DNA from: a virus
Taxonomy: Duplodnaviria; Caudoviricetes
DNA length: 64,000 bases
IMG/VR virus record: IMGVR_UViG_3300013382_000004
Strand: one strand, 5' to 3'
Shown here: positions 828-30,458 of the stretch, in pieces
Numbering within the stretch: the first letter of the stretch is position 1
Layout of the letters: every line of letters starts with the position of its first letter
Made by a program: the position numbers and the translations under genes
The notes under the pieces: model-generated
Seen by the model: the letters and a program-made list of their open reading frames with translations, nothing else
Database searches by the model: none
Told to the model about the DNA's origin: nothing

Positions 828-1014
828 GATTACAAACAAATACGGAAAATCCGTAACAGTTATGTTAAAAATGGAAGAACAAACTTTATTTAAAGGTGAT
901 GTTCTCCCAAGTATTATTTGCTCCTTCCTTAACAAGAAGGAAATTAAACCTGATTGGTTTGTAAATTCATTTGACTTTAACCTTTGCAAGCCCTACAAAG
1001 TTGAACGTGTTTAA
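820..1014 (+). CDS. hypothetical protein
   Basis: ATG 820 after GGAGGT, overlaps previous stop. Confidence 0.65.
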   Translation: MFKITNKYGKSVTVMLKMEEQTLFKGDVLPSIICSFLNKKEIKPDWFVNSFDFNLCKPYKVERV

Positions 1015-1092
1015 ACATTGTTAGAGGGATGGAAAATAACTTCCATCCCTCAATAGAGTGTTTAAGCGCCACTTAATCACTCAACCATTTTA

Positions 1093-1301
1093 CATTAATT
1101 TAGCCTACAATGAATTAATGTCTTATTAAATTAGAAAGGAGACAATACTATGTAGAAAATTATTTCTGTTGACCTCATCAATTAGATAATTGCTATTCAT
1201 ATTATCTACAATCGTAATTAATTCATATTAATTGCGTCACAAGTAGAGAGTGTAGGCTTTCTACTTGTGTTCATCTTAGCACACTTGATGATATCTGTCA
1301 A
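1093..1301. other. kissing-hairpin / micro-ORF / antisense-promoter module 1
   Basis: Hairpin A 1093-1120 (loop contains cctaca), hairpin B 1238-1269 (loop tgtagg), minus-strand TTGACA(1301-1296)-17-TAAGAT(1278-1273). Confidence 0.75.
1150..1221 (+). CDS. TAG-dependent micro-peptide MQKIISVDLINQIIAIHIIYNRN (TAG=Q)
   Basis: SD AGAAAGGAG, ATG TAG start, 23 sense codons to TAA, paralogous to 2380 and 6419. Confidence 0.55.
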
Positions 1302-1346
1302 GTGGTAACTACAAACATTTTTGATTTATGAAAGGAATTTAGAATT

Positions 1347-2279
1347 ATGAAGAAGATTAATCTCACCAACGTCAAGAACGAAAAGTCTGTCAGCGAAGTC
1401 CTGTTCGATGCACTTAAGCCCAAAGCAATTACCAATGAACAGTCTAAAACCGTTTACGCTCTTAAACTCTCTGTCGAAAGAGAGATTGAAAAGAAAGAAG
1501 ATGGTCGTAATTGGGCTATTAGAGATATTCCTCTTTATCTCCCTGAAGTTGATTTACACTATCAGCGTGAGCCTAGGAACTTTGAAGTTGCAAAAATTAC
1601 CAATAATTTCAATATTAACAAAGTTGAAGTTAAAGCAGCTTCTATTCGTAAGGTTGGTAATACTTGGCATCTTTTTCTTATGGATGGTGCGCACACTTTA
1701 AGCGCTTTGCTTTATATGCAAAGTAAAGGTTTCCCCATTTATGCTATCACTTGCAAGGTCTTCATTAATCTCACTTTGGAAGAAGAAGCCGAATTATTTG
1801 CTACTCAGAATGAAGGTAAGACTAACCTTCGTGGATATGAAAAATATAAAGCAGAACTTTGTGCTAAAATGCCTACAGCAGTAATTATCAATCAGGTTAC
1901 AAAGGAATTTGGGCTTACTGTTAAGACCAATTATAACAGCACCGTTAATCGTTACAACAACATCAACGCAGTTGAAGAACTGTATCGTATTGTTAAGCGC
2001 GATGGTGAAAACGCTCTTCGTTTTGTATTTGCTGTTCTTCAAGGAACTGGTTGGAAAGATGATATGGTTTATACTCAGCGTATGTTGGCAGGAATCTCTG
2101 CTTGCTACAAGTACTGCGAAGATACCAAAGCATTCAACTATTTCCTTTTGAATCTTAAGCAGTATAAGAGTTGTGACGAGTTTGTTCGCGTTGCTCAGGA
2201 TAAGATTGAAGAACACGAGGGTCATCCTGCTGAGAAGATTCGTGATTATCTTCTTACTTACATGATTTACAAGAAGTAA
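1347..2279 (+). CDS. ParB/Srx-like N-terminal domain protein (DUF6551-like)
   Basis: VDLHYQR and LMDGAHT (DGQHR-like) motifs, then EEEAELFATQN. Confidence 0.6.
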   Translation: MKKINLTNVKNEKSVSEVLFDALKPKAITNEQSKTVYALKLSVEREIEKKEDGRNWAIRDIPLYLPEVDLHYQREPRNFEVAKITNNFNINKVEVKAASIRKVGNTWHLFLMDGAHTLSALLYMQSKGFPIYAITCKVFINLTLEEEAELFATQNEGKTNLRGYEKYKAELCAKMPTAVIINQVTKEFGLTVKTNYNSTVNRYNNINAVEELYRIVKRDGENALRFVFAVLQGTGWKDDMVYTQRMLAGISACYKYCEDTKAFNYFLLNLKQYKSCDEFVRVAQDKIEEHEGHPAEKIRDYLLTYMIYKK

Positions 2280-2327
2280 AAGAAAGAGACTGATAGCTGT
2301 CCAAACTATCAGTCTCACTTAAGACTC

Positions 2328-2557
2328 CAGACTCCTGTAAAGTCTGTTTACATAATTACTCACGAAAGGAGAAATTAATATGTAGAAAATTTTACATGTT
2401 GATATGGATAGATAGATTTCTGTCATCCGTATCGTTTATCACCGTAATTAACCCATCCAATTATGTATGATTAAACACTAACAACACTCATCAAGTAGAA
2501 GTTACAGGCTACTTTGCTTGATGAGTGTAATATAACATAAACAACAACACTTGTCAA
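2328..2557. other. kissing-hairpin / micro-ORF / antisense-promoter module 2
   Basis: Hairpin A cagact-CCTGTAA-agtctg 2328-2346; hairpin B 2484-2528 loop TTACAGG; minus-strand TTGACA(2557-2552)-17-TATATT. Confidence 0.8.
2380..2451 (+). CDS. TAG-dependent micro-peptide MQKILHVDMDRQISVIRIVYHRN (TAG=Q)
   Basis: SD GAAAGGAG, ATG TAG, 23 sense codons to TAA. Confidence 0.55.
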
Positions 2558-2613
2558 GTAGTTTATGAAATTTCTTTTAAATACTTGACACAATTAAGAA
2601 AGGAAAGTATAAT

Positions 2614-2943
2614 ATGAATAACAGAGATTACAATTACGTTCTCGTTGCACATGATGGAGATTCTTTTTATCCCGTCTATTCTTCCAACCACAAAACAGTT
2701 GTGGAAAATGTTATGTGGGCTGTTTGTATTCAAGAAGAGGGATTCAATCGAATCGACAGTAAGAAGTTGATTGATTTCCTCACTTTTAATCGTATCAAAC
2801 CTGTTGACCAGTTGGATAATGAGGATATCCCCGAGTCTCCTGACTGGAGAATTAATCCTTCTCATCTCTTAAAAAAGCTTGAAAACCAGAATTGGGATGG
2901 CTGGAATATGTTTCTATTGACTGTCCCAGCTTTAAACTTTTAA
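2614..2943 (+). CDS. hypothetical protein
   Basis: 109-aa ORF with SD. Confidence 0.75.
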   Translation: MNNRDYNYVLVAHDGDSFYPVYSSNHKTVVENVMWAVCIQEEGFNRIDSKKLIDFLTFNRIKPVDQLDNEDIPESPDWRINPSHLLKKLENQNWDGWNMFLLTVPALNF

Positions 2944-3053
2944 AGGTTGATAGAGTGCAGGATTGAAATATACCCTGCACTTCAATGAGCCTTTAAGCTC
3001 AAATTAATTTTGTCAAGGAATAAGACAGTAAAACCCACGAGAGAAAGGCTATT

Positions 3054-3572
3054 ATGGCTAACATCAACATCAACACCAAGAAGTCCCTCAATCGCGTTCA
3101 GCTTATGAAGGAAAACAATACCAATCTTGAGTACCTTTACATCGACGGAATCAAATACGGCTGCATGGGTTCTGTCAATGACCGCGACCGTGAAGCTGGC
3201 CTTGCTGTTATTCAGCGTATTGTCGATAACAGTGATAAGACTGGTATGGCTCTCGTTATGGAAGTTATGGCTCAGGTTAATTTCGAAGCTTCCATGAACG
3301 AGAAGGAAATCAATCCTGATGAAGTCCTTGAAGTCAAGGTTGATGGTATCACCTATCCCTGTGTTCTCAATTATGAGAAGAAGGCTTTGTACGATGAAGC
3401 TGGTGAGGAAATCTGTAATACCCGTGACATCGACTGTGAGCTTGATGAACGGGCTTTGAAAGCTCTTCTTGAAGCTCGTGCAGTTAATGCTATTCGTGAG
3501 GACAATGAGAGCAAGTACAATGATTATGAAGATGAAGATGAGGATGATGATTGTGAGAAAGATTGGGAGTAA
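3054..3572 (+). CDS. hypothetical protein with acidic C-terminal tail
   Basis: 172-aa ORF, SD GAAAGG, tail DYEDEDEDDD. Confidence 0.8.
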   Translation: MANININTKKSLNRVQLMKENNTNLEYLYIDGIKYGCMGSVNDRDREAGLAVIQRIVDNSDKTGMALVMEVMAQVNFEASMNEKEINPDEVLEVKVDGITYPCVLNYEKKALYDEAGEEICNTRDIDCELDERALKALLEARAVNAIREDNESKYNDYEDEDEDDDCEKDWE

Positions 3573-3672
3573 TCTTTAATTAACTATCTATAAATCATCA
3601 TCAAATCAACAACAAATAGGAGAGGGTTGAAATATACCCTCTCCACTTTAAAATGAAAGGAAATAAAGTAAA

Positions 3673-6027
3673 ATGAAAACCACTTACATCGACACCATCC
3701 CCAGTGAAATCATTGAAAAGAATAAAGCAACTGTTAAAAAGTTCTTATCTACTAATGAAGCGGCCAGTCCCAATCCAGATAGCTGTCCTGATATCACTGT
3801 CTATTGGCAGCAGAAAGCGAACGGTAAGGCTTTTCATCTGTTGGAAGGTGAATATGAAATCGTTTCTTTTAAAGCTGTTGGGGGTCTTCAAACAGTTAGT
3901 GAATATCGCAAAGAGAGAACTGGTTTCTATAATGTAAGCAATATTAAAACCAATTGTATTGTTGTATGTTCTGGTAAAGATGCAAAGGTTGCTTATGCAA
4001 AATATTACCCTGAATTGGAAATGTTGACATTTGGTGTCATGACTATCAATATTAGAAAGATTCCTGAAGAGAAAAGAAGATATTATTTTGTTGAGCGTTA
4101 TTTCCTCTTTAAGAATTGTCCTGCGCCTTTTGATACTAAGGGCAACATTGCATTTGAATCTAAAGGAGGTAAATTCTATAGCTTAGGTTTAGTAGATTAT
4201 CTTTGTCATGATTTGAACAAAGCAATTGTCCATTCCTATTTCTCTGACGCAGTTGAGGAGTTTACAAAACGAGAATGTTCTCCAAAAATAAGATGGACCA
4301 AATGGACTCCTTATACATTCTCAGACTATTACAAAACAATGTATCCTCGTACCATTTCCAAAACATCAACAGATATTTCTAAACTTGTTAATGATTTACC
4401 CGTTATTAACCTTGAGGAACTTCGCAAAGAATTTCCTAAAAAAGCCGTTGATGTTAAAAACAGTTGGAATGACGAACACCACACTGAATATAAAGACACA
4501 ATTTGGGTATTCAATATCTTAAGTGATAATTATTGTGTCATTCGTCAGTTTGGCGGTTATTTTGAGTTTACAGAACAATCTCGCATCCTTATTGATAACA
4601 AAGGGAAAGTAACAATCTTTGAGCCAGCTCCTCTACTTGATGGAGATACAATATTTAGAGTCTCAAGCTCTGCAAAAGCTGGCATCCCAATTGATAGAGT
4701 TTGTTATTTCAAAGGTTTTGAGGATATGTTCAAATTTAAAAGATTGTTTTACATCTCTTCCATTATCAATGATAATGATGTGATGACCAAAGCAAAGTCA
4801 GCAATCTCTAAAATTATTTACACTCTCAGATATCCTTTTATTGAGCAGTTCTATAAAGCTGGATATAAATACATTGCTAACTATCTTATGAGTGCCACTG
4901 CAAAATCTGATTTAAAAGCTCTTTTTGATGGTAGAAAATATTCCGAGTCTGCAAACATCTACGAGCTTAGTGGAATGAATAAGCATCAGCTCAAGTTAGT
5001 TGATGATATGTTCAATAAGAGACAAAATCCTGAGCGTGTAACTAGTTTGTTTTACGGCTCAAGCGCTACTCCTTGGCAAGTAATTGACACCGCACACTTT
5101 GTTTCTGGGGTTGAGAACTTATCTTCTATTACTGATAAGGATTCTGATTTCTATTTCAATATGGCAAAAAGAATTAATCTCGTCCATTCTGATTATCATG
5201 ATTTTCTGTATTTTATTGGTGCAGACAATAGCGTATATACCTATTATAAAGATAGAAGTAGAATAAACAAAAACAATTGGTGCTACATGAATAAAAACAA
5301 AAATATCATTTCAACAACTTCTGAGCAAACCGAAAGGGATAGAAAGAATCTTCTCAAACTTATGCGTCTTCAGGAAAGAACTGATAAAAAGGGCGCAAGT
5401 GAAGATGTGTTTAAAATCTTTTCTGACGCTTTTAATCTGTTTAAACAAATTTCTAACACCAATCGTCCTGATATTGACTTGTATGCTTGTAAGGACGTGA
5501 ATGAGCTTCACCGTTATCATAATATGTTGATTGAAATCAACATCACAGACAAAGAAGTCAGAAATAAAGAAGAACAGGAGCGTCTGAACAAGTTAGCTGC
5601 TAAACTTTATGACCAGCGCAAAGAAAAGTTTGAGTACGCCGATGACAATTTTTCTATTATTATCCCTGAAGAAATGAACAAAATTACAAAAGAAGGTGTA
5701 TATCTTCATCACTGTGTTGGAGGTTATGTCAACCGTGTGGCTGAAGGTCATACTAATATTCTTTTCTTAAGGAAGAATAGTGACATTGAAATTCCTTTCT
5801 ACACGATTGAAGTAAGTAATGGAAACGAAATCATTCAGATTCACGGCTTGTATAATCGTTGGTTAGGCAATGACCCTGATGCGGTTAAATTTATAATTAA
5901 TTGGATTCATGAAAAGGGTATCAAATGTCCAGTTAATATTGTACTCAATAAAGGTCAAGGTTACAGTTCCAGCACTATCAAGCTCAGTGAAAAAGAATAT
6001 GGTTTGGAGGGTAAAAAATATGTCTAA
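3673..6027 (+). CDS. PcfJ-like domain protein
   Basis: C-terminal EGVYLHHCVGGY...ILFLRK...PFYTIEV...IIQIHGLYN pattern. Confidence 0.75.
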   Translation: MKTTYIDTIPSEIIEKNKATVKKFLSTNEAASPNPDSCPDITVYWQQKANGKAFHLLEGEYEIVSFKAVGGLQTVSEYRKERTGFYNVSNIKTNCIVVCSGKDAKVAYAKYYPELEMLTFGVMTINIRKIPEEKRRYYFVERYFLFKNCPAPFDTKGNIAFESKGGKFYSLGLVDYLCHDLNKAIVHSYFSDAVEEFTKRECSPKIRWTKWTPYTFSDYYKTMYPRTISKTSTDISKLVNDLPVINLEELRKEFPKKAVDVKNSWNDEHHTEYKDTIWVFNILSDNYCVIRQFGGYFEFTEQSRILIDNKGKVTIFEPAPLLDGDTIFRVSSSAKAGIPIDRVCYFKGFEDMFKFKRLFYISSIINDNDVMTKAKSAISKIIYTLRYPFIEQFYKAGYKYIANYLMSATAKSDLKALFDGRKYSESANIYELSGMNKHQLKLVDDMFNKRQNPERVTSLFYGSSATPWQVIDTAHFVSGVENLSSITDKDSDFYFNMAKRINLVHSDYHDFLYFIGADNSVYTYYKDRSRINKNNWCYMNKNKNIISTTSEQTERDRKNLLKLMRLQERTDKKGASEDVFKIFSDAFNLFKQISNTNRPDIDLYACKDVNELHRYHNMLIEINITDKEVRNKEEQERLNKLAAKLYDQRKEKFEYADDNFSIIIPEEMNKITKEGVYLHHCVGGYVNRVAEGHTNILFLRKNSDIEIPFYTIEVSNGNEIIQIHGLYNRWLGNDPDAVKFIINWIHEKGIKCPVNIVLNKGQGYSSSTIKLSEKEYGLEGKKYV

Positions 6028-6199
6028 ACGTACACCTAATAATACTATCACCGAATATCCTCAGTATGATGGTATGTACTATGACCGCTGTGAAGGAATC
6101 CAGCGTAAAACTCATGGTAATTATCGGTACAAGATTAACAAACAGTACAAAGAAAAGCGGAAACAGTATTTATACACAATAGAAAAAGAGCAGGAGTAA
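6020..6199 (+). CDS. hypothetical basic protein
   Basis: ATG 6020 after GGAGG, overlaps upstream stop; followed by terminator hairpin 6187-6214. Confidence 0.55.
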   Translation: MSKRTPNNTITEYPQYDGMYYDRCEGIQRKTHGNYRYKINKQYKEKRKQYLYTIEKEQE

Positions 6200-6224
6200 A
6201 ATCCTGCTCTCTTTTGATATATTC

Positions 6225-6346
6225 AGTTCCTATAAACTATTAGTTTAATGTTTATTATTGTTCTATCATTCTTGGCCGTATGTACGAGCTTTAATAACAA
6301 CTTAAACTAATTTATATAAGAGAGCTGTATAGGCAACTCTCTTATA
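6225..6346. ncRNA. ORF-less kissing-hairpin unit (module 3b)
   Basis: agtt-CCTATA-aact 6225-6238, long central stem attagtttaa/ttaaactaat, hairpin 6315-6346 with loop TATAGG. Confidence 0.55.
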
Positions 6347-6356
6347 CGATTATAAC

Positions 6357-6591
6357 CAGTTCCTATAAACTGTTTATATAATTTACCCCTTGTCTAAGGA
6401 GGAAAGGAGTTGAAAGCTATGTAGAGAATCTTCTACGTTGATTATTTCTACAATCTTATGTAGATAATGATTATCTATAACCGTAATTAATCCCACATAT
6501 TGATTACGAAGATGTATAGATGGTAAGTAAGAAGTATAGGATTCTTCTTATCATCTGTACATATATTAACACATAACATCAATCTTGTCAA
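6357..6591. other. kissing-hairpin / micro-ORF / antisense-promoter module 3
   Basis: Hairpin A cagtt-CCTATA-aactg 6357-6372; hairpin B 6512-6562 loop TATAGG; minus-strand TTGACA(6591-6586)-17-TAATAT. Confidence 0.75.
6419..6490 (+). CDS. TAG-dependent micro-peptide MQRIFYVDYFYNLMQIMIIYNRN (TAG=Q)
   Basis: SD GAAAGGAG, ATG TAG, 23 sense codons to TAA. Confidence 0.55.
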
Positions 6592-6619
6592 GTACTTTTT
6601 AGTACAGAAAGGAAAGAAA

Positions 6620-6784
6620 ATGAAAATTAAAACTACTGTTGAAACCGACCTTAGCTATCTCGACCTTCTTACCCAGTTAAAGGAAGATATTAATTCTGAC
6701 ACCTGTATGCCTGTTACAGACCGCAAAAAAGCTGAAAAACTCACTCAAGAACTCTTTGACTTACTTTGGAAGTATTCTTACTAA
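6620..6784 (+). CDS. small hypothetical protein (54 aa)
   Basis: SD AGAAAGGA, ATG 6620, TAA 6784; below ORF-track cutoff. Confidence 0.6.
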   Translation: MKIKTTVETDLSYLDLLTQLKEDINSDTCMPVTDRKKAEKLTQELFDLLWKYSY

Positions 6785-6811
6785 ATAATTTACTTTATTT
6801 AGTTTAAATAC

Positions 6812-6840
6812 TTGACATTTACGGATTAATAAGTTATAAT
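6812..6840 (+). promoter_or_regulatory. sigmaA-type promoter
   Basis: Perfect TTGACA-17bp-TATAAT upstream of the DUF932-like gene. Confidence 0.8.
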
Positions 6841-6889
6841 TATTTCAACAAAATAAAGCTGACGAGCTTAAACGTAGAAAGGAATTATT

Positions 6890-7894
6890 ATGGGTATTCT
6901 TCAGTTTAATAGCGAGAAAGTTGCTCCTATTGCTTCTCGTTTTGAGGGCATTCAGCGCACTGTTTTTACCGATGGTGTTGGTAAAGATATCACTTCAGCC
7001 GGAAATCTTGAGCAAGCTCTTAAATTATCTGGTCTTGATTATAAGGTTGAAAAACGACCTTTACAGTTTCTTCAGCCTGTAGCACAAAAAGTTGGGGACA
7101 AAGAAATCATTGTACAGACTCCTTATCAAATCGCAGATAAAGTTGCTACTGTTCGCACCGATACAATGCAGTCTCTTGGTATCGTTTCTCCCAACTATGA
7201 AATTTTAAATAATGAAGATGCATTTGACTTCCTTGATTCTCTTGTAGAAGAGGGCGCTCATTTTGAAACGGCTGGCAGTTATGGAGCCAATGGTGCTAAA
7301 AACATTATTACTATGAGCACAGAAGGTATGAAAATTTTAGGAGATGATTATAAGCCTTATCTTCTTTTACAAAATTCTCATGATGGTAGCAAAGCGATTT
7401 CTATCTCGTATGTAAGTCTTCGCATCTTTTGTTCTAATTGTTTAGCCAGAGCCAAAAAGGGAATAGTAAATGAAATTAGTATTCGCCACAGCTCTTCTAT
7501 GAATTACAAACTTGAAGCTGCCCGACTCACTTTAAAAGGGCAGAAAGAATATCTGACTGAATTTAAAAAAGAAGCTGAAAAATATGCAACTATCAATTTC
7601 AGTGAAAATCAATTTTTTGAAATGGTTAAACAATTATTCCCTGTAAAAACAGAAGATAGAGACATTATTCAAATTCGCAATTTATGCCAAATTGAATATC
7701 TTATGCGTTGTTACAAAGCAAATGATGTCAACAATTTTAAAGATAAGGGATTTGCTGGACTTCTTGCAGTATCCGATTTTGAAAGTCATCCTGTTGCTTT
7801 AAGAAAAGCAAAAACTCCTATGGGATTTACTAATGTAATGGTAGGGATGCCATTGCTTAATAAAGTTTACAGTATTATTGGAGAAGCCGCATAA
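6890..7894 (+). CDS. DUF932 family phage/plasmid protein
   Basis: LKLSGLDYKVEK, ATVRTDT..LGIVS.NY.ILNN.DAF, ETAG, YLLLQNSHDGS, RIFCSN, SIRHS motifs. Confidence 0.8.
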   Translation: MGILQFNSEKVAPIASRFEGIQRTVFTDGVGKDITSAGNLEQALKLSGLDYKVEKRPLQFLQPVAQKVGDKEIIVQTPYQIADKVATVRTDTMQSLGIVSPNYEILNNEDAFDFLDSLVEEGAHFETAGSYGANGAKNIITMSTEGMKILGDDYKPYLLLQNSHDGSKAISISYVSLRIFCSNCLARAKKGIVNEISIRHSSSMNYKLEAARLTLKGQKEYLTEFKKEAEKYATINFSENQFFEMVKQLFPVKTEDRDIIQIRNLCQIEYLMRCYKANDVNNFKDKGFAGLLAVSDFESHPVALRKAKTPMGFTNVMVGMPLLNKVYSIIGEAA

Positions 7895-7927
7895 GCGGCT
7901 CTCCTTTATACTGAGAAAGAAGGATTT

Positions 7928-8218
7928 ATGAAAAAAATAGATTTAACAGGACAAACATTTGGTGAGCTTAAAGTTATAGAATTTTTTAATCCAAAAGGAA
8001 AAGATGTAGTAGGAGTAAAAGAAATTAACAATTATTTCTTAGGCTTTATTACTTATAAGCATCATTTCCAAAGCAAATCTTTTCATCAAAAAGAAAATGC
8101 TATAAAATGGAGACTCCAAAAAGAATTAGAACTTTTTGGGCCTGAAAAAGCACCTCAACGTCATTTGTTTGAAAAATATCAAATAAAAAAGGAGAATAAA
8201 GAAAATGAAAAAGCTTAA
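7928..8218 (+). pseudogene. internally deleted HNH/AP2 homing endonuclease remnant
   Basis: N-term KIDLTGQTFGELKVIE and C-term ELELFGPEKAPQRHLFEKY resemble the ends of 17608-18357; no HNH core. Confidence 0.5.
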
Positions 8219-8648
8219 TCTGTTTATCCTCGTCATCGCTTTGATTATGTGCTTCCTGTATATGGGAAGAAGTGAACAAGTAATTGCTCTTGGTGATTCT
8301 ATTAAGGATTATCAAGCTCAAATTGATAAGCTCCACTCTCAACTTTGGGAGATTGAAAATAACAAATCTCTTGTGCTTACACAACCTGATACAAATCTTC
8401 CTGATGTAGCTTTTGAAGCAAACACTTATCCTGTGTATGCAGAGTTGGTTGAATCTGACCCTGATAACAACACATATAAATTCAGAGTGCTCAATGCTAC
8501 ACAGGATGATGGCTTCGATGGGATTTATACTCTTGAAACTGATATGGCTGTGTATGAAGATGCTCCTTATATCCTTACAATGGACACCAACGGAACTAAA
8601 GAAACTTCTGATGACTATATTGCTGTTGTGTGGATTGCAACTCCGTAA
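8205..8648 (+). CDS. membrane-anchored or secreted hypothetical protein
   Basis: Hydrophobic N-terminal segment, short coiled coil. Confidence 0.7.
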   Translation: MKKLNLFILVIALIMCFLYMGRSEQVIALGDSIKDYQAQIDKLHSQLWEIENNKSLVLTQPDTNLPDVAFEANTYPVYAELVESDPDNNTYKFRVLNATQDDGFDGIYTLETDMAVYEDAPYILTMDTNGTKETSDDYIAVVWIATP

Positions 8649-8704
8649 TCCACCTTCACATAACACCTATAAACAACACATTTAATTAAGAAAGGAATTT
8701 AACT

Positions 8705-9040
8705 ATGAACACTATCGCTTACAAACCTTTTATTAACAGTAACAAAGAAATGATGGAGAAGGTTAACCCTGATAGCTGGAAAGCTATCATTGAGTTTGAT
8801 TCTCTTGATGAAGTCCTTTGCCTTTATCATGCTCTTGATAATGCAATCGACAATCATTTTGCGGATGCTCGTAACAAACATGTTTGGGCACTTGGGTCTA
8901 AAACTCAAGAAGAATCCCTGTATTATGAAGACCTCGCTGACCAGCAGAGAAGATATGGTTACAAACTCATGAAAATTAAGAACAGTCTTGAAGAAACTTT
9001 TCATTGTTCTGTATATTACTTTGAAGGAGATGCAAAATAA
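8705..9040 (+). CDS. hypothetical protein
   Basis: ORF with SD. Confidence 0.75.
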   Translation: MNTIAYKPFINSNKEMMEKVNPDSWKAIIEFDSLDEVLCLYHALDNAIDNHFADARNKHVWALGSKTQEESLYYEDLADQQRRYGYKLMKIKNSLEETFHCSVYYFEGDAK

Positions 9041-9392
9041 TGATTACAATCGTTCAATGCAAGGATAAGGCAACATTCAAGGTAACTAATGATGTTACTT
9101 TTGATGATGTCACTGTTATGATGCAAGACAAAGAAGATGCGGATGAAATGATTTATCATCTACTTGTGAACGTGATTAAAGGAGAATAAAACATGAAAAA
9201 CAAAATCTTATCTTTCTGTCTCGGTGAAGAAGATGGTACGGCTATCTTCTGTGAAACTCGTGAAGAATTCCTCCAGTACATCAATGAAAAAATTGATGAA
9301 GCTGAAGAACGTGGTCAGGAACATTTCGATTTGACCATTGAGCAGACTGAGTGCTAACAACATTTGTGAATTAAGAAAGGAAGTAAAACATT

Positions 9393-9698
9393 ATGAAGAA
9401 ATACATGGTTATTGATTGCTATGAGCGTGAGATTGGTGAGCCTGAGTTCTTTGATACTATGCTTAAGGCACAAATCTGTATGATTGAAAAGTTTTTTGAG
9501 GCGTGTAGACATATTGATGAAAACAGTTACGATTACGAATTTGAAATCAATTCTATGGAAGATTTGGATAAAGTTATAGATGCGCTTACTAAAGAAGACC
9601 TCTTAGATGATGAAAACAATTTCTCTGAGAATTGTGCTTGGGCTGAAACTTACAATCATGATAACTGGGACTGTAAGATTATCGAAGTTGAAATCTGA
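9393..9698 (+). CDS. hypothetical acidic protein
   Basis: ORF with SD. Confidence 0.75.
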   Translation: MKKYMVIDCYEREIGEPEFFDTMLKAQICMIEKFFEACRHIDENSYDYEFEINSMEDLDKVIDALTKEDLLDDENNFSENCAWAETYNHDNWDCKIIEVEI

Positions 9699-9779
9699 TT
9701 TCAAAACAGTATAATTCAATTTATTATAACTCAATTTATTATCCTGTGCTATCGGGTTTACGGGCAGAAAGGAAATATC

Positions 9780-10271
9780 ATGAATAATACTTATTTCAAC
9801 CTCAAGGTCAATTCCATCCCCGCTGGTCGTTTCGTTAAGATGGCTTATGTTTCTGATATCACTCTTACAGCTCTTGGTCGTAAAGCTGGTGTCTCTGTCC
9901 TTAAGCGTGTGATTGGTACTTATCGTATTGGTATCAATTATAAAAATACCAAGAAAGCAAAGGAAAAGGCCATCACCCAGAACAAGCCTATGGATGCTGT
10001 TGCTAAACTTCCTTGGGGTCAGTGGAAGGATGGCAGCAATCGTATTATCTGTCATGTGAATAAGAAAGGTGAATATAATGAGTATCTCCGTGTGTACGAT
10101 ACTCCCAATAAGCCTCGTGTCGCTTATTACCTTAATGGTAAACCTATTTCCAAAGAAGACCTCCGTAAGACTGGCTTTGTCCCTGACAGTTATTTCACTT
10201 CCAAGAACGATTCTGGTTGTATGACTATCTCAGCAAATAATATCGAATGGATTGGTCAGCCCTCCATCTAA
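9780..10271 (+). CDS. hypothetical basic protein
   Basis: ORF with SD. Confidence 0.8.
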   Translation: MNNTYFNLKVNSIPAGRFVKMAYVSDITLTALGRKAGVSVLKRVIGTYRIGINYKNTKKAKEKAITQNKPMDAVAKLPWGQWKDGSNRIICHVNKKGEYNEYLRVYDTPNKPRVAYYLNGKPISKEDLRKTGFVPDSYFTSKNDSGCMTISANNIEWIGQPSI

Positions 10272-10515
10272 CATCAACAAGGGAGAGAGTGAAATATCTC
10301 TCTCCCTTAAATTAAAATTTGAAAGGAAATATAACTATGTCTACTAACGATTATTCTCAGCTTCGTACTCTTATCTCCGATTTCTGTCGTAACGAACTTA
10401 ACCATGGTCGTTGCACTGAAGAATGTTGTGAATTCTGCTGTGTGAATGAAACCTATGACAAAACCAAAGTCTCTGAAACTTTAGATAAAGAAGAATAAGA
10501 AAGGAAGTATAAATT

Positions 10516-10764
10516 ATGACTATTGGCAATTTCGTTATCACTTATGAAGGACCTTCCACAGACTTAGAAAAGAACAAAGAATACTATATGTTCATTGTCA
10601 CTCGCTTCGATGAAAAACACAAAGTACTTGATAACAAAGTTTTCTACTTTGCATTTAAACCTCATTTCAAGCCCGAAGATTTTGAATTGATTATGGATTT
10701 GTACAGGCTTCCTAATCATTCCAAAATCGCTAGTGCACACATCGTCTTTGATGTAGAAAAATAA
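10516..10764 (+). CDS. hypothetical protein
   Basis: ORF with SD. Confidence 0.7.
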   Translation: MTIGNFVITYEGPSTDLEKNKEYYMFIVTRFDEKHKVLDNKVFYFAFKPHFKPEDFELIMDLYRLPNHSKIASAHIVFDVEK

Positions 10765-10818
10765 TTCTACTCAAATATAAATAACAACACATTTATTGAA
10801 AAGAAAGGAATTTTGATT

Positions 10819-11499
10819 ATGAAGAACGAAACTATGATTTACGCTAAGTATCAGGAAACTTATATGAACGATGAATTCATTGGCTATGAAAGAGCTAAGA
10901 AGTTCATTAATAACTGGGATTCTTGGGAGAAATGCTTCCCTCATGAAGTTCTTGTTTGGCTTGTTCAGAAGAAAATTAAAATGAAGGATGTCTGTGCTAT
11001 TCATTATATGCCTGTGTCCTTTGGCTTAAATAATTATTATGAAGGTCGTTATGAACGTCTTCCTCAAATTAAAAAGCACTTCTCTTTTACCGAAGAAAGA
11101 GGTGGATGGACAAGAGAACACGTTGAGGATGCTTATCAGTATATTATCCCTGCTCGATATCAAAGCGTTCATCTTAGAGACGCTTTTAAGGAAGCTATCT
11201 ATATGGCTTATCCTTATATGGGAAAATATAAGTTCGATGCTTATGTTCCTGATTATAGCACTTCTACTCAAGATATTTACATCACAATGATTTACAAACT
11301 GGATGGTGAGGAAGTCAAAACAAGTCTTTATTGTCCTCTTGAAGCATTGCTTAAGAAAGACCCTGACCTTATTTATAAAAGACATTATGGCTATAATGCT
11401 GATTATTACAGATGCCAACCTGAACGTGCAAAAATTGTCCTTGGTGTTCTCAATAGCCAGAAGTACAAAGCTTTCTGCAAAAAGGTGAAGGAGGGTTAA
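10819..11499 (+). CDS. hypothetical protein
   Basis: ATG 10819 after AGAAAGGA. Confidence 0.75.
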   Translation: MKNETMIYAKYQETYMNDEFIGYERAKKFINNWDSWEKCFPHEVLVWLVQKKIKMKDVCAIHYMPVSFGLNNYYEGRYERLPQIKKHFSFTEERGGWTREHVEDAYQYIIPARYQSVHLRDAFKEAIYMAYPYMGKYKFDAYVPDYSTSTQDIYITMIYKLDGEEVKTSLYCPLEALLKKDPDLIYKRHYGYNADYYRCQPERAKIVLGVLNSQKYKAFCKKVKEG

Positions 11500-11570
11500 G
11501 CCCTCCTCCTTTTAATATATAGTCACTACAAACAATAATAAACATTTGAATTAAGAAAGGAAATTTGATT

Positions 11571-13187
11571 ATGTCTAACACTGCTATCGCCAACTTCTAC
11601 AAGTCCACCACTCACGATTATGAGAGCTTCTTCACCAAGTATGAACCTTCTGAAAAGGAAAATGAAATCAATGCTCGTATTAAAGAACTTACTGACAAAC
11701 TTGAAGCAGCTAAAGTTGAAATGACCAAGGTTCAGAACAGTCGCTACAATAAGGATTTCACTTCTCATGGTAAGAAGATTGTTGTTCATTACAGCTCTAA
11801 TCGTTCTGATATTGAATTGTATTTTGACTTGTTTACTGGAACTCCTGTAAACCGTGATTCTCTTGAGCCTCAGACCTTTATCATCAAGGAGGTTAATTTG
11901 AAAGGTGGTGACTTTTGGGTCAATGTTGGTTATTGCTTCTCTCTTGGTGCTGTTGTGTCTCGTCATTATAGATACAAAATTGCTACTAATAATGCTTTTT
12001 GCAATTTTGTTATGAACGGTGAACAGTTGATTCCTATTCTTGAACCTGATGCCACTCCTATTAGCGATGGTGATGTTCCTGCGTTTGAATCTGGTATGGG
12101 GGATGATGCCACTTATTTTATTTCTCAGATTTGGGATATCCCTGTTGAGAATATCGGTCCTAAATATACTTTTAAAAGATTAAGAGAATCTTTGAAGAGA
12201 AATAAATCCACTGAAATTATTTTCCGTACTGCTCCCAAGTCTGTACAGGAATCTTTGCTTATGCGCAAAATTGAAACTGCCGAACCAGTCTACAAGCTTC
12301 TCAATCTTACTAAGGCAGAATTCAAAGAAGCCTGTGATAGAAATATTATTGGCGACTGGACGAACTTACAAACCATCATTAGGTCTGCTTTCAAGCAGGA
12401 TGATAAAAATTACTATTACGGTAGTAACGATGACATGACTCTTGAAGATTTTTGTCATTACACTAATCAGGAATGGTTTGATATCATCGAGAAAGCAAAA
12501 TATTGGGACGAAGAATTTGCTTTTAATCATGTCCAGATGGGCGGCTATGGTAATAATGCATTGGAATTAACCTTTAGCGCATATTTAAGAAACAATACTT
12601 CTTATAGAAATGCAAAATTCTATCATTTCTATACCTTTGGTAAGTTCATGGATTATGTTTGCGAAGAAGCTGTCAATCAGGGCTTTAAAACTTTGAATTC
12701 TTTTATGACTGAGCTTCGTGACTATCTTGATATGTGTACTTCCATGGATATCAAACCCACTCTTTATAGTTCTTATCTTAAGCAGACTCATGATATTACT
12801 TCTCGTAACTATGAAGTCAAACTTACAGAGGAACAGGCTGAGATGTTTGAGAATGCCTATAAAGGCTTCGAAAACTATACTACCAAAGATAAGAAGTACA
12901 GTGTCATTCGTCCTAAAAATGCTGATGATGTTAAGCACGAAGGTTCTGAACTCAATCATTGTTGCTCTTCTTATATCGGAAAGGTGTTGAAAAGAAATTG
13001 CCTTATCATCTTCCTTCGTAAGACGGATAAACTTGACAAGTCTCTTGTTACTATTGAGCTTAATAACAAAGCTATTGTTCAAGCAAGAGGAAATTCTAAC
13101 CGTTCTATTAGTGAAGAGGAATATATTGCTATTTGTGAATACGCCAAGGAAAACAAGCTTAAGGTTAATGTTACTCCTCGTGATTAA
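11571..13187 (+). CDS. PcfJ-like domain protein (second copy)
   Basis: LRDYLDM, LKQTHD, EGSELNHCCSSY...IIFLRK...LVTIEL...VQARGNSNR. Confidence 0.75.
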   Translation: MSNTAIANFYKSTTHDYESFFTKYEPSEKENEINARIKELTDKLEAAKVEMTKVQNSRYNKDFTSHGKKIVVHYSSNRSDIELYFDLFTGTPVNRDSLEPQTFIIKEVNLKGGDFWVNVGYCFSLGAVVSRHYRYKIATNNAFCNFVMNGEQLIPILEPDATPISDGDVPAFESGMGDDATYFISQIWDIPVENIGPKYTFKRLRESLKRNKSTEIIFRTAPKSVQESLLMRKIETAEPVYKLLNLTKAEFKEACDRNIIGDWTNLQTIIRSAFKQDDKNYYYGSNDDMTLEDFCHYTNQEWFDIIEKAKYWDEEFAFNHVQMGGYGNNALELTFSAYLRNNTSYRNAKFYHFYTFGKFMDYVCEEAVNQGFKTLNSFMTELRDYLDMCTSMDIKPTLYSSYLKQTHDITSRNYEVKLTEEQAEMFENAYKGFENYTTKDKKYSVIRPKNADDVKHEGSELNHCCSSYIGKVLKRNCLIIFLRKTDKLDKSLVTIELNNKAIVQARGNSNRSISEEEYIAICEYAKENKLKVNVTPRD

Positions 13188-13270
13188 CATTTATCTATAA
13201 CAAATCACAAACACAATTAACAACACATTTAAGCTGACCTAACGGCTATACGGGGAGAAAGGTAAACATT

Positions 13271-13846
13271 ATGACGAACACTAAGATTTATAACAACATG
13301 ACTGTTACCGTCACTTGCAGCGAAAGCGAAGATGTTGAAATGATTAATCTTATCAATAAATTCAAAGAAACTCAGAAAACTCATGAGTTTACTGAGAAAT
13401 CCTATGCACCTAAAATCAAAGCAATTGGTGAGGCTAAATGGATTGTTATTGTAAACCAACTTCTTGAGCTTTGCAAAGTTGCTGAAGAACTTGATATCAG
13501 AAACCAGCTTAGTAACTTTATGCGCATTTCCTTTAATAGAGACGATACTGGCGAACTTTATATTCTTCGCCTCGGATGGTATTCGCCCCTTAACCAGTAT
13601 ACCTTAACTTATGGTTATACAGGCTGCATTTACCAAGATGCTACATTGTGGCCTGTAGAGGAATATTGTCCTAAAAGTGAGCTTGAAGATAAGGATGGCT
13701 GGCTTTCTAAATGGGATGAATATGACATTTATAATAAGTTCCGTTCTAAGCTGATGAAAGAAATTCAGCGTCGTACTGAAATTGAAAATGCAAAAACAAA
13801 TGAAATCATTGACCGTTATAACGAGTTCGCAAAAATTGACGAATAA
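13271..13846 (+). CDS. hypothetical protein
   Basis: ORF with SD; terminator hairpin 13854-13891 follows. Confidence 0.75.
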   Translation: MTNTKIYNNMTVTVTCSESEDVEMINLINKFKETQKTHEFTEKSYAPKIKAIGEAKWIVIVNQLLELCKVAEELDIRNQLSNFMRISFNRDDTGELYILRLGWYSPLNQYTLTYGYTGCIYQDATLWPVEEYCPKSELEDKDGWLSKWDEYDIYNKFRSKLMKEIQRRTEIENAKTNEIIDRYNEFAKIDE

Positions 13847-13898
13847 ATAAAATAAAAGAGTGGGTAAGTGTACATCTTACTCACTCTTTTTAAAACTC

Positions 13899-14140
13899 CA
13901 GCCCCGTAAGCTGTTCATATAAATGAAACCCTTGTCTTAAGGAAGAAAGGAGATGAAAAACCATGTAGAAAATTAAATAGATAAACTACAGATTTAATGT
14001 TTATTATTTCGTGATTGTCTTGACAGGCTTCATGGAAGTTTAAATATTAATCTAAAATAACAAACAGTACACATAGGGTCAAGAGGTTACGGGTCTCTTA
14101 ACATTATATGTATTGTAACATATAAAAACATTCTTGTCAA
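13899..14140. other. kissing-hairpin / micro-ORF / antisense-promoter module 4
   Basis: Hairpin A cagc-CCCGTAA-gctg 13899-13913; hairpin B loop TTACGGG 14087-14093; minus-strand TTGACA(14140-14135)-17-TACAAT. Confidence 0.75.
13963..14043 (+). CDS. TAG-dependent micro-peptide MQKIKQINYRFNVYYFVIVLTGFMEV (TAG=Q)
   Basis: SD AGAAAGGAG, ATG TAG, second TAG at codon 6, TAA at 14043. Confidence 0.5.
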
Positions 14141-21886: not shown

Positions 21887-22426
21887 ATGAAGTCTTGGTA
21901 GGGAGGGTGGGTTAGACTTCTCAGCACTTATAGTTACTCAGTGACTATAAGTTAAGATTCTTACTCAGTGAGAATCTATTTCCCTTTTTACAGGGAATCT
22001 TTTTCCTTATTTAAGGGGAGATTTTTTCCATATCCTGCGGGGGGTTTTAATCCTTCCCCACCACCACCCCCAAAAATTTAATATCTTCATCAAGAAAAGA
22101 GAAACGCCTTCTTTTCAATAAACCACAAACAAGTGGCAAAACTTTTTCAGGTGCGTCGGTTCCGAAGGGGATACTATGTTCTTATCCTTACTTATTCCTC
22201 CCAACCCACCCACCCCTTTTAAGTAAACCTCGGCGGGACTCTTTTTGTGCTTCGCACCCCCATTTCATTGCTGCTCATTTCAACCACAAAAATCAAAAAA
22301 CAGTTTCCCACAAACCTACTATATCACTTCTAATTTTATCCATGAAAAAAGCCCATCTCTGAAGAGGATATCAGAGTGAGCTTCTTTCAATTTTGGAGAA
22401 CAGAACAGAGAAAATTTATCTAAGTC

Positions 22427-29069: not shown

Positions 29070-30458
29070 TTAAGGGTCTTGAGAATTCTATATTTTAGAC
29101 CAAGATTTATTAAATAAATTTTCCCACACAGAATTTTTTTCAGAAGGATTAGAAGAAAGAGATTCAAGATTCTGAGGTATAAGTTTATCTAAATTAAGTT
29201 GAATCAAGTCTTTATTTAATTTTTCATATAAGAAAATTTCATACTATTGCGAAAGCTATACCGCTTTTTCTTCTTCTTTATTAGGAAATTCAACAGTTCC
29301 ATCTTGTTTTTTTATAACGTGTCTTGATTTTATAATTTCAGTGTGTTGTCTTTCTTCTTTAAGTTTAAGAATTTTCTTTTGAGATTCTTTGTTATTAGTA
29401 GTAAGATTCTTTCGTAAAAGTAATTCATCAAAAAAATCAGAAGTTTGATTTTTATAATGGGATTCATTTAAAGCAACAAGGGCAGTAGAATATTTAATTA
29501 AATAAGAAGGATAAGCAAAAACTGCTCCAAGACGGTTAATAAGTCCTTGTGTCATTTTTTGTTCAAATTCTTTTTGTTTACCATTTGAAATTAAACTTGA
29601 AAAACAATTGCAGCCCAAGTCTATAAAAATTTGACCTCTAAGATTAACATAGGTATCTATTTCTTTAGAAGTTAAAGGTCGTTCTTTATAAGTAACAAGA
29701 AGTGGTTCTTTGTTTTTAAGAGGTAAATAAAAACTTCCATTCTCTTCATATATAGCTGAATAGTCTGCATCAAATGGTAATTTATCTTTATCAATAAATC
29801 CACCTACAATAGTATTTTGTAAAAAAATAACTCCTTCTTTTTCTAATTGGCTTAAAATGGATTCTACTTGATAATAATTCTACTTTGAGGTATGGGAATC
29901 ATAATCTTCTAATACACTCATTGTATGTTTTGCTAAAACAAATTCATTCTTTTTTCTTGTTTCTCTTATTTCTTTTTTAGGTTCTGTGGCAAAGGGATAT
30001 CTAGAATCTTTTAAATCTAAAGTATATTTTTCTAAACGCTTACCATAAATATAGGGAGAAGAATGGAAATGTTTGAAATTTTCATTCTATAAACCTATTG
30101 CAGTAGCCAAATCTCCTTTAGAAATACAAAGATTTTCTCCATTCGTATATTGTCCATATATATTAAGGAACGAGCAAAAAATCCAGATAGCAGTATTTTG
30201 GTATAATTCTTTAACTACAGCTTGATAATATTCTTCAGGAGGAACAACTTTGATATTGATAAATTTATCTTTGCTTTTTCTCCAAGTAAAACATTTTTTC
30301 CAATTTTCTAATTGTTTCTTTTGATGTTTCTTTTGCGACGGTTTGGAATAATCGGTTTCATCAAGCAGCTTACAAAGTTCTTTATAATTATCAACAGAAG
30401 AAACATTAGATAGTTTTTCCTAAACTCTAAGATAAAGGCTCTATTTCTAATTAGCCAT
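29070..30458 (-). CDS. 462-aa TAG-recoded protein, possible replication-initiator-like DNA-binding protein
   Basis: SD AAGGAG + ATG 30458; frame open to TAA 29070 except 8 in-frame TAGs; N-term NYKELCKLLDE...KKQLENW; own promoter 30528-30556. Function inferred mainly from position. Confidence 0.8.

What the first reader, a model, noticed from the sequence alone, without database searches (positions are those of the whole stretch)
1093..14140. Repeated module: covarying kissing-loop RNA, ATG-TAG micro-ORF and convergent antisense promoter (candidate code-gated peptide/antisense system)
Seen in sequence: four dispersed copies (1093-1301, 2328-2557, 6357-6591, 13899-14140), each shortly downstream of a + strand gene's 3' hairpin. 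Every copy has the order hairpin A, SD GAAAGGAG, ATG TAG ... TAA, hairpin B, then a near-consensus minus-strand sigmaA promoter whose +1 falls at hairpin B. The A and B loops are complementary and change together between copies: CCTACA/TGTAGG, CCTGTAA/TTACAGG, CCTATA/TATAGG, CCCGTAA/TTACGGG. With TAG=Gln, three ORFs give 23-aa paralogues (MQKIISVDLINQIIAIHIIYNRN, MQKILHVDMDRQISVIRIVYHRN, MQRIFYVDYFYNLMQIMIIYNRN) with synonymous changes at conserved VD/IY positions; the fourth gives 26 aa. Each has exactly two TAGs, one always at codon 2. Inference, two options: (a) type I toxin-antitoxin-like loci whose peptide is locked both by antisense RNA and by a stop at codon 2 until the phage switches code; (b) trans-acting sRNAs that display anti-SD/anti-AUG sequence (CUCCUUUC...CUACAU) on a kissing-loop scaffold. 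I know of no described element with this architecture.
Basis: partly seen in the sequence, partly recalled or inferred. Interest (0 to 1): 0.92.

Follow-up and report, generated by a model that had tools for sequence, protein, structure and literature searches.

The report
Amber-locked, antisense-guarded phage mini-genes
A large gut phage that rereads the TAG stop codon as glutamine carries many tiny peptide genes, each opposed by an antisense RNA, usually interrupted by TAG and clasped by two hairpins whose loops pair and mutate together; this looks like an undescribed way of keeping a peptide off until late in infection, but the peptide's function is untested.

Summary
Observation confirmed. 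The window holds four full cassettes and a fifth truncated one (6225-6346). About 190 homologues occur in ~165-220 kb TAG=Gln gut phages, 6-12 per genome. Loops A and B are Watson-Crick complements in 161 of 193, in ten co-varying types. The 23-27 aa ORFs are under purifying selection (pN/pS 0.20, shifted frames about 1). Wobble asymmetry places hairpin B on the sense mRNA and the upstream hairpin on the antisense strand as its terminator; the antisense -10 box is conserved. TAG at codon 2 is not universal, but all 121 Gln-containing variants keep at least one TAG (85% of Gln codons, against 18% in late genes and 0 of 163 in neighbouring window genes); 13 variants have none. Best reading: type I toxin-antitoxin-like cassettes silenced early by antisense plus amber and released late. 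Toxicity, transcription and the role of the kiss are untested; most peptides are not typical transmembrane helices. The trans-sRNA option is not supported. No Rfam, Pfam, NCBIfam, PHROG, PDB or literature match was found. This scan noted the same element on other genomes before.

The parts
1007..1069 (+). Long stem with a bulged A upstream of cassette 1, RNase III-site-like; its 3' arm overlaps an alternative hairpin 1056-1082
   Evidence: E+ -34.5 vs E- -26.5; RNase III role is inference
1092..1121 (+). Cassette 1 hairpin A, loop CCTACA at 1104-1109
1134..1221 (+). Cassette 1 SD (1134-1141) and 23-aa ORF 1150-1221, TAG at codons 2 and 12
1238..1269 (+). Cassette 1 hairpin B, loop TGTAGG at 1251-1256
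1273..1301 (-). Cassette 1 antisense sigmaA-type promoter (TTGACA-17-TG-TAAGAT); no clear terminator for this RNA
2286..2316 (-). Terminator-like hairpin for antisense RNA 2 (predicted about 243 nt)
2328..2346 (+). Cassette 2 hairpin A, loop CCTGTAA at 2334-2340
2364..2451 (+). Cassette 2 SD and 23-aa ORF 2380-2451, TAG at codons 2 and 12 (CAA or CAG at 12 in orthologues)
2484..2528 (+). Cassette 2 hairpin B, loop TTACAGG at 2502-2508
2529..2557 (-). Cassette 2 antisense promoter (11/12, extended -10)
6182..6215 (.). Terminator-like hairpin upstream of the tandem pair (called on both strands)
6225..6346 (+). Fifth, truncated cassette: broken hairpin A (loop 6229-6234), 3' part of a 26-aa-type ORF (6232-6294, SD and start deleted), hairpin B (6315-6346, loop 6328-6333); intact in sister phages
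6351..6378 (+). Cassette 3 hairpin A, loop CCTATA at 6362-6367
6402..6490 (+). Cassette 3 SD and 23-aa ORF 6419-6490, TAG at codons 2 and 15
6512..6562 (+). Cassette 3 hairpin B, loop TATAGG at 6535-6540
6563..6591 (-). Cassette 3 antisense promoter (10/12, extended -10)
13854..13890 (.). Bidirectional terminator-like hairpin upstream of cassette 4
13899..13913 (+). Cassette 4 hairpin A, loop CCCGTAA at 13903-13909
13945..14043 (+). Cassette 4 SD and 26-aa ORF 13963-14043, TAG at codons 2 and 6
14068..14111 (+). Cassette 4 hairpin B (partly degenerate), loop TTACGGG at 14087-14093
14112..14140 (-). Cassette 4 antisense promoter (11/12, extended -10); predicted RNA about 256 nt

Best explanation
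Each cassette is a self-contained mini-gene for a 23-27 aa peptide in the early, host-polymerase-transcribed block of a TAG=Gln jumbo phage, held off by up to three locks and released late. SHOWN BY SEQUENCE COMPARISON: the peptide is selected; a sigmaA-type promoter and terminator define a ~230-260 nt antisense RNA covering the whole SD and ORF; in-frame TAG is kept far above genome levels; hairpins A and B carry co-varying complementary loops, and B is optimised on the sense strand. INFERRED: the sense RNA comes from read-through of the early operon. Early on, host RF1 stops ribosomes at the TAG, including during co-transcriptional translation, which other type I systems block with metastable hairpins. 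The antisense RNA removes most mRNA through RNase III. Molecules that close the A:B kiss have both loops occupied, so they resist loop-nucleated antisense pairing and end decay and build a dormant pool, like full-length hok or aapA1 mRNA. Late, when host-promoter transcription of the antisense RNA falls and the phage CUA tRNA reads TAG, the pool is translated: an AND gate on infection stage. The peptide is most likely a growth-inhibitory or envelope-acting late effector; its target is unknown.
For: pN/pS 0.20 in frame vs 0.92 and 1.15 in shifted frames; TAG/CAA/CAG interchange at aligned positions. 121 of 121 Gln-containing variants have a TAG, including all 25 without TAG at codon 2; both copies with CAG or CAA at codon 2 have TAG at codon 6. 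TAG share of Gln codons: 153/180 here, 118/662 in late genes of G001, 11/627 in flanking genes, 0/163 in the window block. CUA tRNA in G001, G002, G003, G005. Given a selected -35, the unselected -10 is conserved at 17 bp (T 1.0, A 1.0, T 1.0; TG 0.99/0.97). Upstream hairpin: minus strand more stable in 48/60, A-tract before it in 54/60; hairpin B: plus strand more stable in 74/82, G-U 103 vs A-C 54. 161/193 with a Watson-Crick loop pair, ten types, cognate-only matrix. At most 14 nt shared between cassettes of one genome, so each antisense RNA is cognate. Recoded stops concentrate in late and lysis genes (10.1101/2021.08.26.457843).
Against: No expression or toxicity data. 13 of 134 variants have no TAG, so the amber lock is dispensable in some slots. 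About 30 of 193 cassettes lack the loop pair, and loop types recur within a genome. The kiss does not cover the SD or start codon, so it is not a classic SD-sequestering fold-back; start-codon pairing is not above synonymous shuffles (mean z 0.3). Only 18/118 peptides reach a 19-residue Kyte-Doolittle mean of 1.6. No dedicated sense promoter was found, and 18/60 upstream hairpins (including cassette 4's) have a T-tract on the sense side that should cut read-through. Hairpin A shows no clear strand preference (26 vs 31). Homologues are related (27 clusters), and codon-2 TAG was part of some search patterns.
Confidence: 0.55

Rival explanations
1. Carrier-state addiction and competitor sensing. 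The phage persists as an episome. TAG-free cassettes act as ordinary addiction modules, and TAG-containing ones fire when a co-infecting TAG-recoding phage supplies a suppressor tRNA and shuts off the antisense RNA, aborting the rival's infection.
For: Same anatomy as the best explanation. Multi-copy type I systems stabilise C. difficile prophages (PMC7699646). Sensing of same-code superinfection was proposed in 10.1101/2021.08.26.457843. GC-skew switch with converging genes near 22 kb; both TAG-free and TAG-bearing slots coexist.
Against: No evidence for a resident state. The only tyrosine recombinase carries in-frame TAG in 4 of 5 relatives, so it is not a standard-code integrase. The phage's own code switch would also open the lock.
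Confidence: 0.15
2. The peptide is not a toxin but a late-acting ligand (beta-hairpin or three-stranded meander) that binds a host or phage protein, with the same RNA-level control.
For: 48% beta-branched or aromatic residues, a conserved D/N-Y-x-x-N segment and a Gly-containing second turn in the 26-27-mers. The second AlphaFold model shows short strands (pLDDT 63). Only 6/119 peptides pass a simple 17-residue membrane-insertion sum of 2 or less.
Against: The first AlphaFold model is one helix (best pLDDT 87, others 58-75; query padded). No significant 100 or 170 degree periodicity. No family or structure match.
Confidence: 0.13
3. Code-sensing leader (attenuator): translation of the mini-ORF switches expression of the downstream early gene.
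For: Each cassette sits just before another + strand gene, with a hairpin after the stop codon.
Against: Only 7/117 B hairpins have a T-tract. Downstream genes vary widely for one peptide type. A consensus + strand promoter lies right after cassette 2 (2585). The conserved antisense unit is not needed by a leader.
Confidence: 0.06
4. Trans-acting minus-strand sRNAs that display anti-SD/anti-AUG on a kissing scaffold.
For: The minus-strand promoter and terminator are well supported; three of four minus-strand RNAs fold better than shuffles (z -2.3 to -4.7); one loop variant (L301) is a wobble only on the minus strand.
Against: Selection acts on the sense reading frame; hairpin B is sense-optimised; three other loop variants (L245, L267, L293) wobble only on the sense strand; no target above shuffles in G001. 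Host targets were not tested.
Confidence: 0.05
5. Start-stop decoy: abundant closed AUG-UAG RNAs occupy RF1 or ribosomes and help the code switch; the peptide is incidental.
For: AUG-UAG behind a strong SD in 96 of 134 variants; sister genomes encode no release factor or GlnRS, so how RF1 is overcome is open.
Against: Purifying selection over the whole peptide; 38 variants lack TAG at codon 2; an antisense RNA would destroy the decoy.
Confidence: 0.05

Closest known systems
ibs/Sib type I toxin-antitoxin family (E. coli)
   Same: Multi-copy; very short hydrophobic peptide; the antisense RNA spans the entire ORF (PMC8594479); cognate specificity.
   Different: No sequence match. Ibs peptides are membrane helices (PMC8309996); here polar residues interrupt the core. 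No in-frame stop or intramolecular kiss is reported for ibs in the papers read. Here a Firmicutes-type phage operon with no dedicated sense promoter found.
aapA/IsoA (Helicobacter pylori)
   Same: Multi-copy; stable mRNA closed by a 5'-3' interaction; loop-loop contacts matter (PMC5416894).
   Different: There the kiss is between mRNA and antisense RNA and the 5'-3' helix hides the SD; here the kiss is between two hairpins of the same mRNA, leaves the SD outside, and co-varies.
hok/Sok tac-fbi fold-back (plasmid R1)
   Same: A long-range 5'-3' contact gives a stable, antisense-resistant mRNA pool (PMC9841398).
   Different: tac-fbi is a helix coupled to SD sequestration and 3' trimming; Sok is short and 5'; no mok-like leader here; no amber gate.
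Prophage type I systems of Firmicutes (C. difficile CD0977.1/RCd11 family; B. subtilis bsrG/SR4, yonT/SR6 from my own knowledge)
   Same: Phage-borne, convergent sigmaA antisense promoter, several copies per phage (PMC7699646).
   Different: Those toxins have a hydrophobic N-terminal region, a charged tail and their own promoters; in the B. subtilis-type families the antisense overlap is partial and 3'.
Stop-codon-gated late genes of alternatively coded gut phages (10.1101/2021.08.26.457843)
   Same: TAG read as Gln with a CUA tRNA; some gene families prefer the recoded stop, proposed as a timing device. Genome size and dispersed recoding resemble the Jade or Sapphire clades (not tested by phylogeny).
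   Different: Those are lysis, tail and endonuclease genes. Mini-ORFs within a TAG-free early block, with antisense RNAs and kissing loops, were not found in the sections read.

Membership tests
Type I toxin-antitoxin system | Small protein of under 60 aa encoded by a selected ORF | tested here: met
   23-27 aa, pN/pS 0.20
Type I toxin-antitoxin system | Antisense RNA complementary to the mRNA | tested here: inconclusive
   Promoter and terminator signatures conserved, but no RNA data
Type I toxin-antitoxin system | Peptide is toxic and the antisense RNA neutralises it | not testable with these tools
   needs expression experiments
Type I toxin-antitoxin system | Stable mRNA, unstable antitoxin | not testable with these tools
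   needs rifampicin decay assays
Membrane-associated type I toxins | Hydrophobic alpha-helical transmembrane segment | tested here: inconclusive
   18/118 reach KD19 1.6, 6/119 pass the insertion sum; AlphaFold gave helix for one padded member and weak strands for another
Named type I families (Ibs, Hok, Ldr/Fst, AapA, SprA and others in Pfam, NCBIfam, Rfam) | Match to the family's peptide HMM or antitoxin covariance model | tested here: not met
   short peptides limit HMM sensitivity
hok/aapA-type fold-back mRNA | 5'-3' contact sequesters the SD | tested here: not met
   loop A ends 37-54 nt before the start codon and pairs with loop B, not with the SD
TAG-recoded (code 15) phage | In-frame TAG aligned to Gln codons; TAG avoided as stop; CUA tRNA | tested here: met
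   (tRNA seen in sister genomes, not in this window)
Leader-peptide attenuator | Terminator with U-tract after the leader, tied to a specific downstream gene | tested here: not met
   7/117 with T-tract; downstream genes vary

The most novel reading that the evidence does not exclude
A new class of phage timer: mini-mRNAs closed by a co-evolving intramolecular kissing loop are stockpiled early and translated only when two infection-stage signals coincide (loss of host-promoter antisense RNA and the switch of genetic code), producing a diversified family of peptides unrelated to helical type I toxins.
Probability: 0.3. Interest if true: 0.9.

Novelty: new variant of a known kind. Interest (0 to 1): 0.78.

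Why it matters
Whether stop-codon recoding in phages is a regulatory switch or tolerated drift is an open question (10.1101/2021.08.26.457843). These cassettes give unusually clean comparative evidence for selection: TAG is kept in 121 of 121 Gln-containing variants, moves between positions, and sits in a block whose other genes avoid it. A 250-nt cassette can be tested in a lab strain with and without a suppressor tRNA. A co-varying kissing loop that closes a bacterial-type mRNA around its ORF was not found in Rfam or in the papers searched, and could serve as a natural stabilising or AND-gate part.

Tried and rejected
No whole genome is held for the window; sister genomes were used. Rfam at gathering and E-value thresholds: nothing credible. 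Pfam, NCBIfam, PHROG and PDB sequence searches with peptide alignments: nothing. No match among GenBank phages. Sequencing runs: no RNA holder listed; laid runs were contigs, probably DNA, so no evidence on expression. GTDB genomes: no relative of the DUF932 gene; the pattern search found cassettes only on one 28-kb contig of a Bacteroidaceae MAG, with none elsewhere in it, probably a misbinned phage contig since the SD and promoters are Firmicutes-type; host not identified. A conserved hairpin over the start codon as the reason for ATG-TAG: not supported. My beta-hairpin reading of the peptide: not settled. To reach the 30-residue minimum, the AlphaFold queries were padded with in-frame upstream codons (7 for cassette 1; for L336 an upstream in-frame ATG plus one codon); the two models disagree and carry little weight. 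Orthogonal loop codes per genome: rejected, types recur within a genome. Minus-strand ORFs in the antisense RNAs: none with a convincing SD. Release factor, GlnRS and sigma70 region 2: not found in five relatives. Eight literature searches found no description of the element; the library lacks most subscription papers. R-scape was not available.


Full report
1. Observation. The four modules are present as described. Each has hairpin A, GAAAGGAG, an ORF starting ATG-TAG that is 23 or 26 codons long under code 15, hairpin B whose loop is the reverse complement of loop A, and a minus-strand TTGACA-17-TG-(-10) promoter whose predicted start falls in the 3' arm of B. A sequence model finds exactly these four full copies in the window and a weak fifth at 6227-6355. 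The fifth is a tandem copy that lost its SD and first codons; it is intact in sister phages. Other runs' contigs confirm the assembly.

2. Context. The window belongs to a ~33% GC phage. Relatives with 94-96% identity in the gene between cassettes 1 and 2 are 206-221 kb near-complete gut phage genomes. None of 35 + strand genes in the block ends in TAG or contains it. Long genes in the structural region of G001 use TAG for 18% of Gln codons. Four of five relatives have a CUA-anticodon tRNA; none has a release factor, GlnRS or sigma70 region 2 match. The cassettes cluster in one ~20 kb block, 6-12 per genome. SD use and the promoter consensus point to a Firmicutes host (inference).

3. The peptide is real. 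Homologues came from TAG-containing patterns and, without that bias, from flanking genes and the model: 193 distinct cassettes and 134 peptide/codon variants in 27 clusters. Within clusters pN/pS is 0.20, against 0.92 and 1.15 in the shifted frames. Lengths are 23, 24, 26 or 27 aa, with one frameshifted copy seen (L059). The shared pattern is M, Q/K/R, K/R, a hydrophobic stretch, D/N-Y at 8-9, N/Q at 12, a second hydrophobic stretch and a conserved tail. No family or structure matches. Most are too polar for a standard transmembrane helix; the composition suggests strands, but two padded AlphaFold models disagree.

4. The amber codon. 153 of 180 Gln codons are TAG, against 11 of 627 in flanking genes. 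All 121 variants with any Gln have at least one TAG. In 25 of them codon 2 is not TAG and the first TAG is at codon 5, 6, 10, 12 or 15; the two with CAG or CAA at codon 2 both have TAG at codon 6. Taking one value per cluster, 25 of 25 is expected with probability about 1e-16 at the late-gene share and 1e-6 at a 50% share (clusters are not fully independent, and codon-2 counts are inflated by the search patterns). So selection appears to keep a TAG somewhere, not at codon 2 itself. Thirteen variants have no Gln and no TAG; checked examples keep the antisense promoter and loop pair, so the amber lock is an added layer. A start-codon hairpin does not explain ATG-TAG.

5. The loops and their strand. 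161 of 193 cassettes have a Watson-Crick A/B pair (162 by script, one spurious), in ten types with loop A CCTACA, CCTATA, CCCACA, CCCGTA, CCCGTAA, CCCGTAT, CCTGTAA, CCTGTAT, CCTGCAA or CCGTG; between types each A matches only its own B. Hairpin B is more stable on the sense strand in 74 of 82 distinct sequences (G-U 103, A-C 54). The upstream hairpin is an internal control with the opposite bias (minus strand in 48 of 60; A-C 43, G-U 14; A-tract before it in 54 of 60), as expected for the antisense terminator. Hairpin A is undecided by energy (26 vs 31). Of single-site loop variants, three are G-U on the sense strand, one on the antisense strand, two on neither. In L123 loop A pairs with a single-stranded 9-mer just after the stop, and in L260 A and B are 17-bp inverted repeats: other ways of making the same bracket. 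Many loop-less cassettes follow a long bulged stem like window 1007-1069, whose 3' arm can refold into a new hairpin before the SD; this resembles RNase III processing of phage SP82 early mRNA (cited in PMC4838370) and is inference.

6. The antisense unit. With only the -35 hexamer selected, the -10 positions T, A and T are invariant at 17 bp and an extended TG is 97-99% conserved across cassettes with a promoter. With the terminator bias this supports a ~230-260 nt RNA covering B, the ORF, the SD and A. It has no convincing ORF, shares at most 14 nt with other cassettes, and its RBS-complementary part has no other phage match above shuffles. No RNA data could be had.

7. Mechanism. The anatomy is that of a type I toxin-antitoxin locus of the ibs/Sib geometry (PMC8594479) with two additions. 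The amber codon would block co-transcriptional translation until the phage changes the code, as proposed for lysis genes (10.1101/2021.08.26.457843). The kiss does not hide the SD, so I infer that it protects: it occupies the two loops through which an antisense RNA would nucleate (as IsoA1 does on aapA1, PMC5416894) and ties the ends, giving a stable pool analogous to full-length hok mRNA (PMC9841398). Late loss of antisense transcription and arrival of the CUA tRNA would release the peptide. These steps are untested. Weak points: no sense promoter found, sense-side T-tracts upstream of about 30% of cassettes, TAG-free and loop-less members, and no evidence of toxicity. Rivals: carrier-state addiction or competitor sensing (0.15), non-toxic ligand (0.13), leader (0.06), trans sRNA (0.05), RF1 decoy (0.05).

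8. Novelty. No Rfam, protein-family or literature match was found. It works like a type I system, fails membership of every named family tested, and cannot be filed as a toxin-antitoxin pair until toxicity is shown. I class it as a new variant of a known kind, with a 0.3 chance that it is a categorically new timer. Earlier notes of this scan describe the same element on other genomes; they are not independent evidence, and the tests above were run here.

Noticed in passing
window 1007-1069 and 2939-2997: Long stems with a bulged A and a shared TAGAGTG motif (opposite arm in the second); repeated in the early block of relatives; RNase III-site-like, with a refolding alternative at 1056-1082
   Followed up: partly
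window 6225-6346: Truncated fifth cassette, apparently a deletion between loop A and codon 7 at a short shared sequence; gives B-A adjacency with identical loop type to cassette 3
   Followed up: yes
window 2585-2613 and 6812-6840: Perfect + strand TTGACA-17-TATAAT promoters; the first overlaps the SD of ORF 2614 and would start inside it
   Followed up: no
window 53788-55515 (-): 575-aa DUF2828/DUF7788 vWA protein, PHROG 850 'RNA-binding protein'
   Followed up: no
window 57080-58592 (-): Fe-S oxidoreductase-like ORF with five N-terminal TAGs and a weak intein hit, next to a TAG-containing HNH endonuclease
   Followed up: no
window 29070-30458 (-): 462-aa ORF open only under code 15 (8 TAGs), no family match
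   Followed up: partly
window ~22000: GC-skew reversal where + and - gene blocks converge, with several strong hairpins at 21900-22400; possible replication terminus
   Followed up: no
window 3673-6027 and 11565-13187: Two PcfJ-like paralogues in the early block
   Followed up: no
L260:1070 cassette: Hairpins A and B are full 17-bp inverted repeats of each other, hinting at origin by inverted duplication or kiss-to-duplex conversion
   Followed up: partly
L119:11033 and L120:5594 slot (G003, G005): Two copies of the B loop sequence after one ORF
   Followed up: no
G001:161561-162094 and orthologues: Single tyrosine recombinase with in-frame TAG in 4 of 5 relatives
   Followed up: partly
L163 / G007 contig 181: Ten cassettes on one 28-kb contig inside a Bacteroidaceae MAG; probably a misbinned phage contig
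   Followed up: partly
L124:5776-8300: Several 26-mers carry Q-L-D-Y near the N-terminus, loosely like the sliding-clamp binding motif; absent from the 23-24-mers
   Followed up: no
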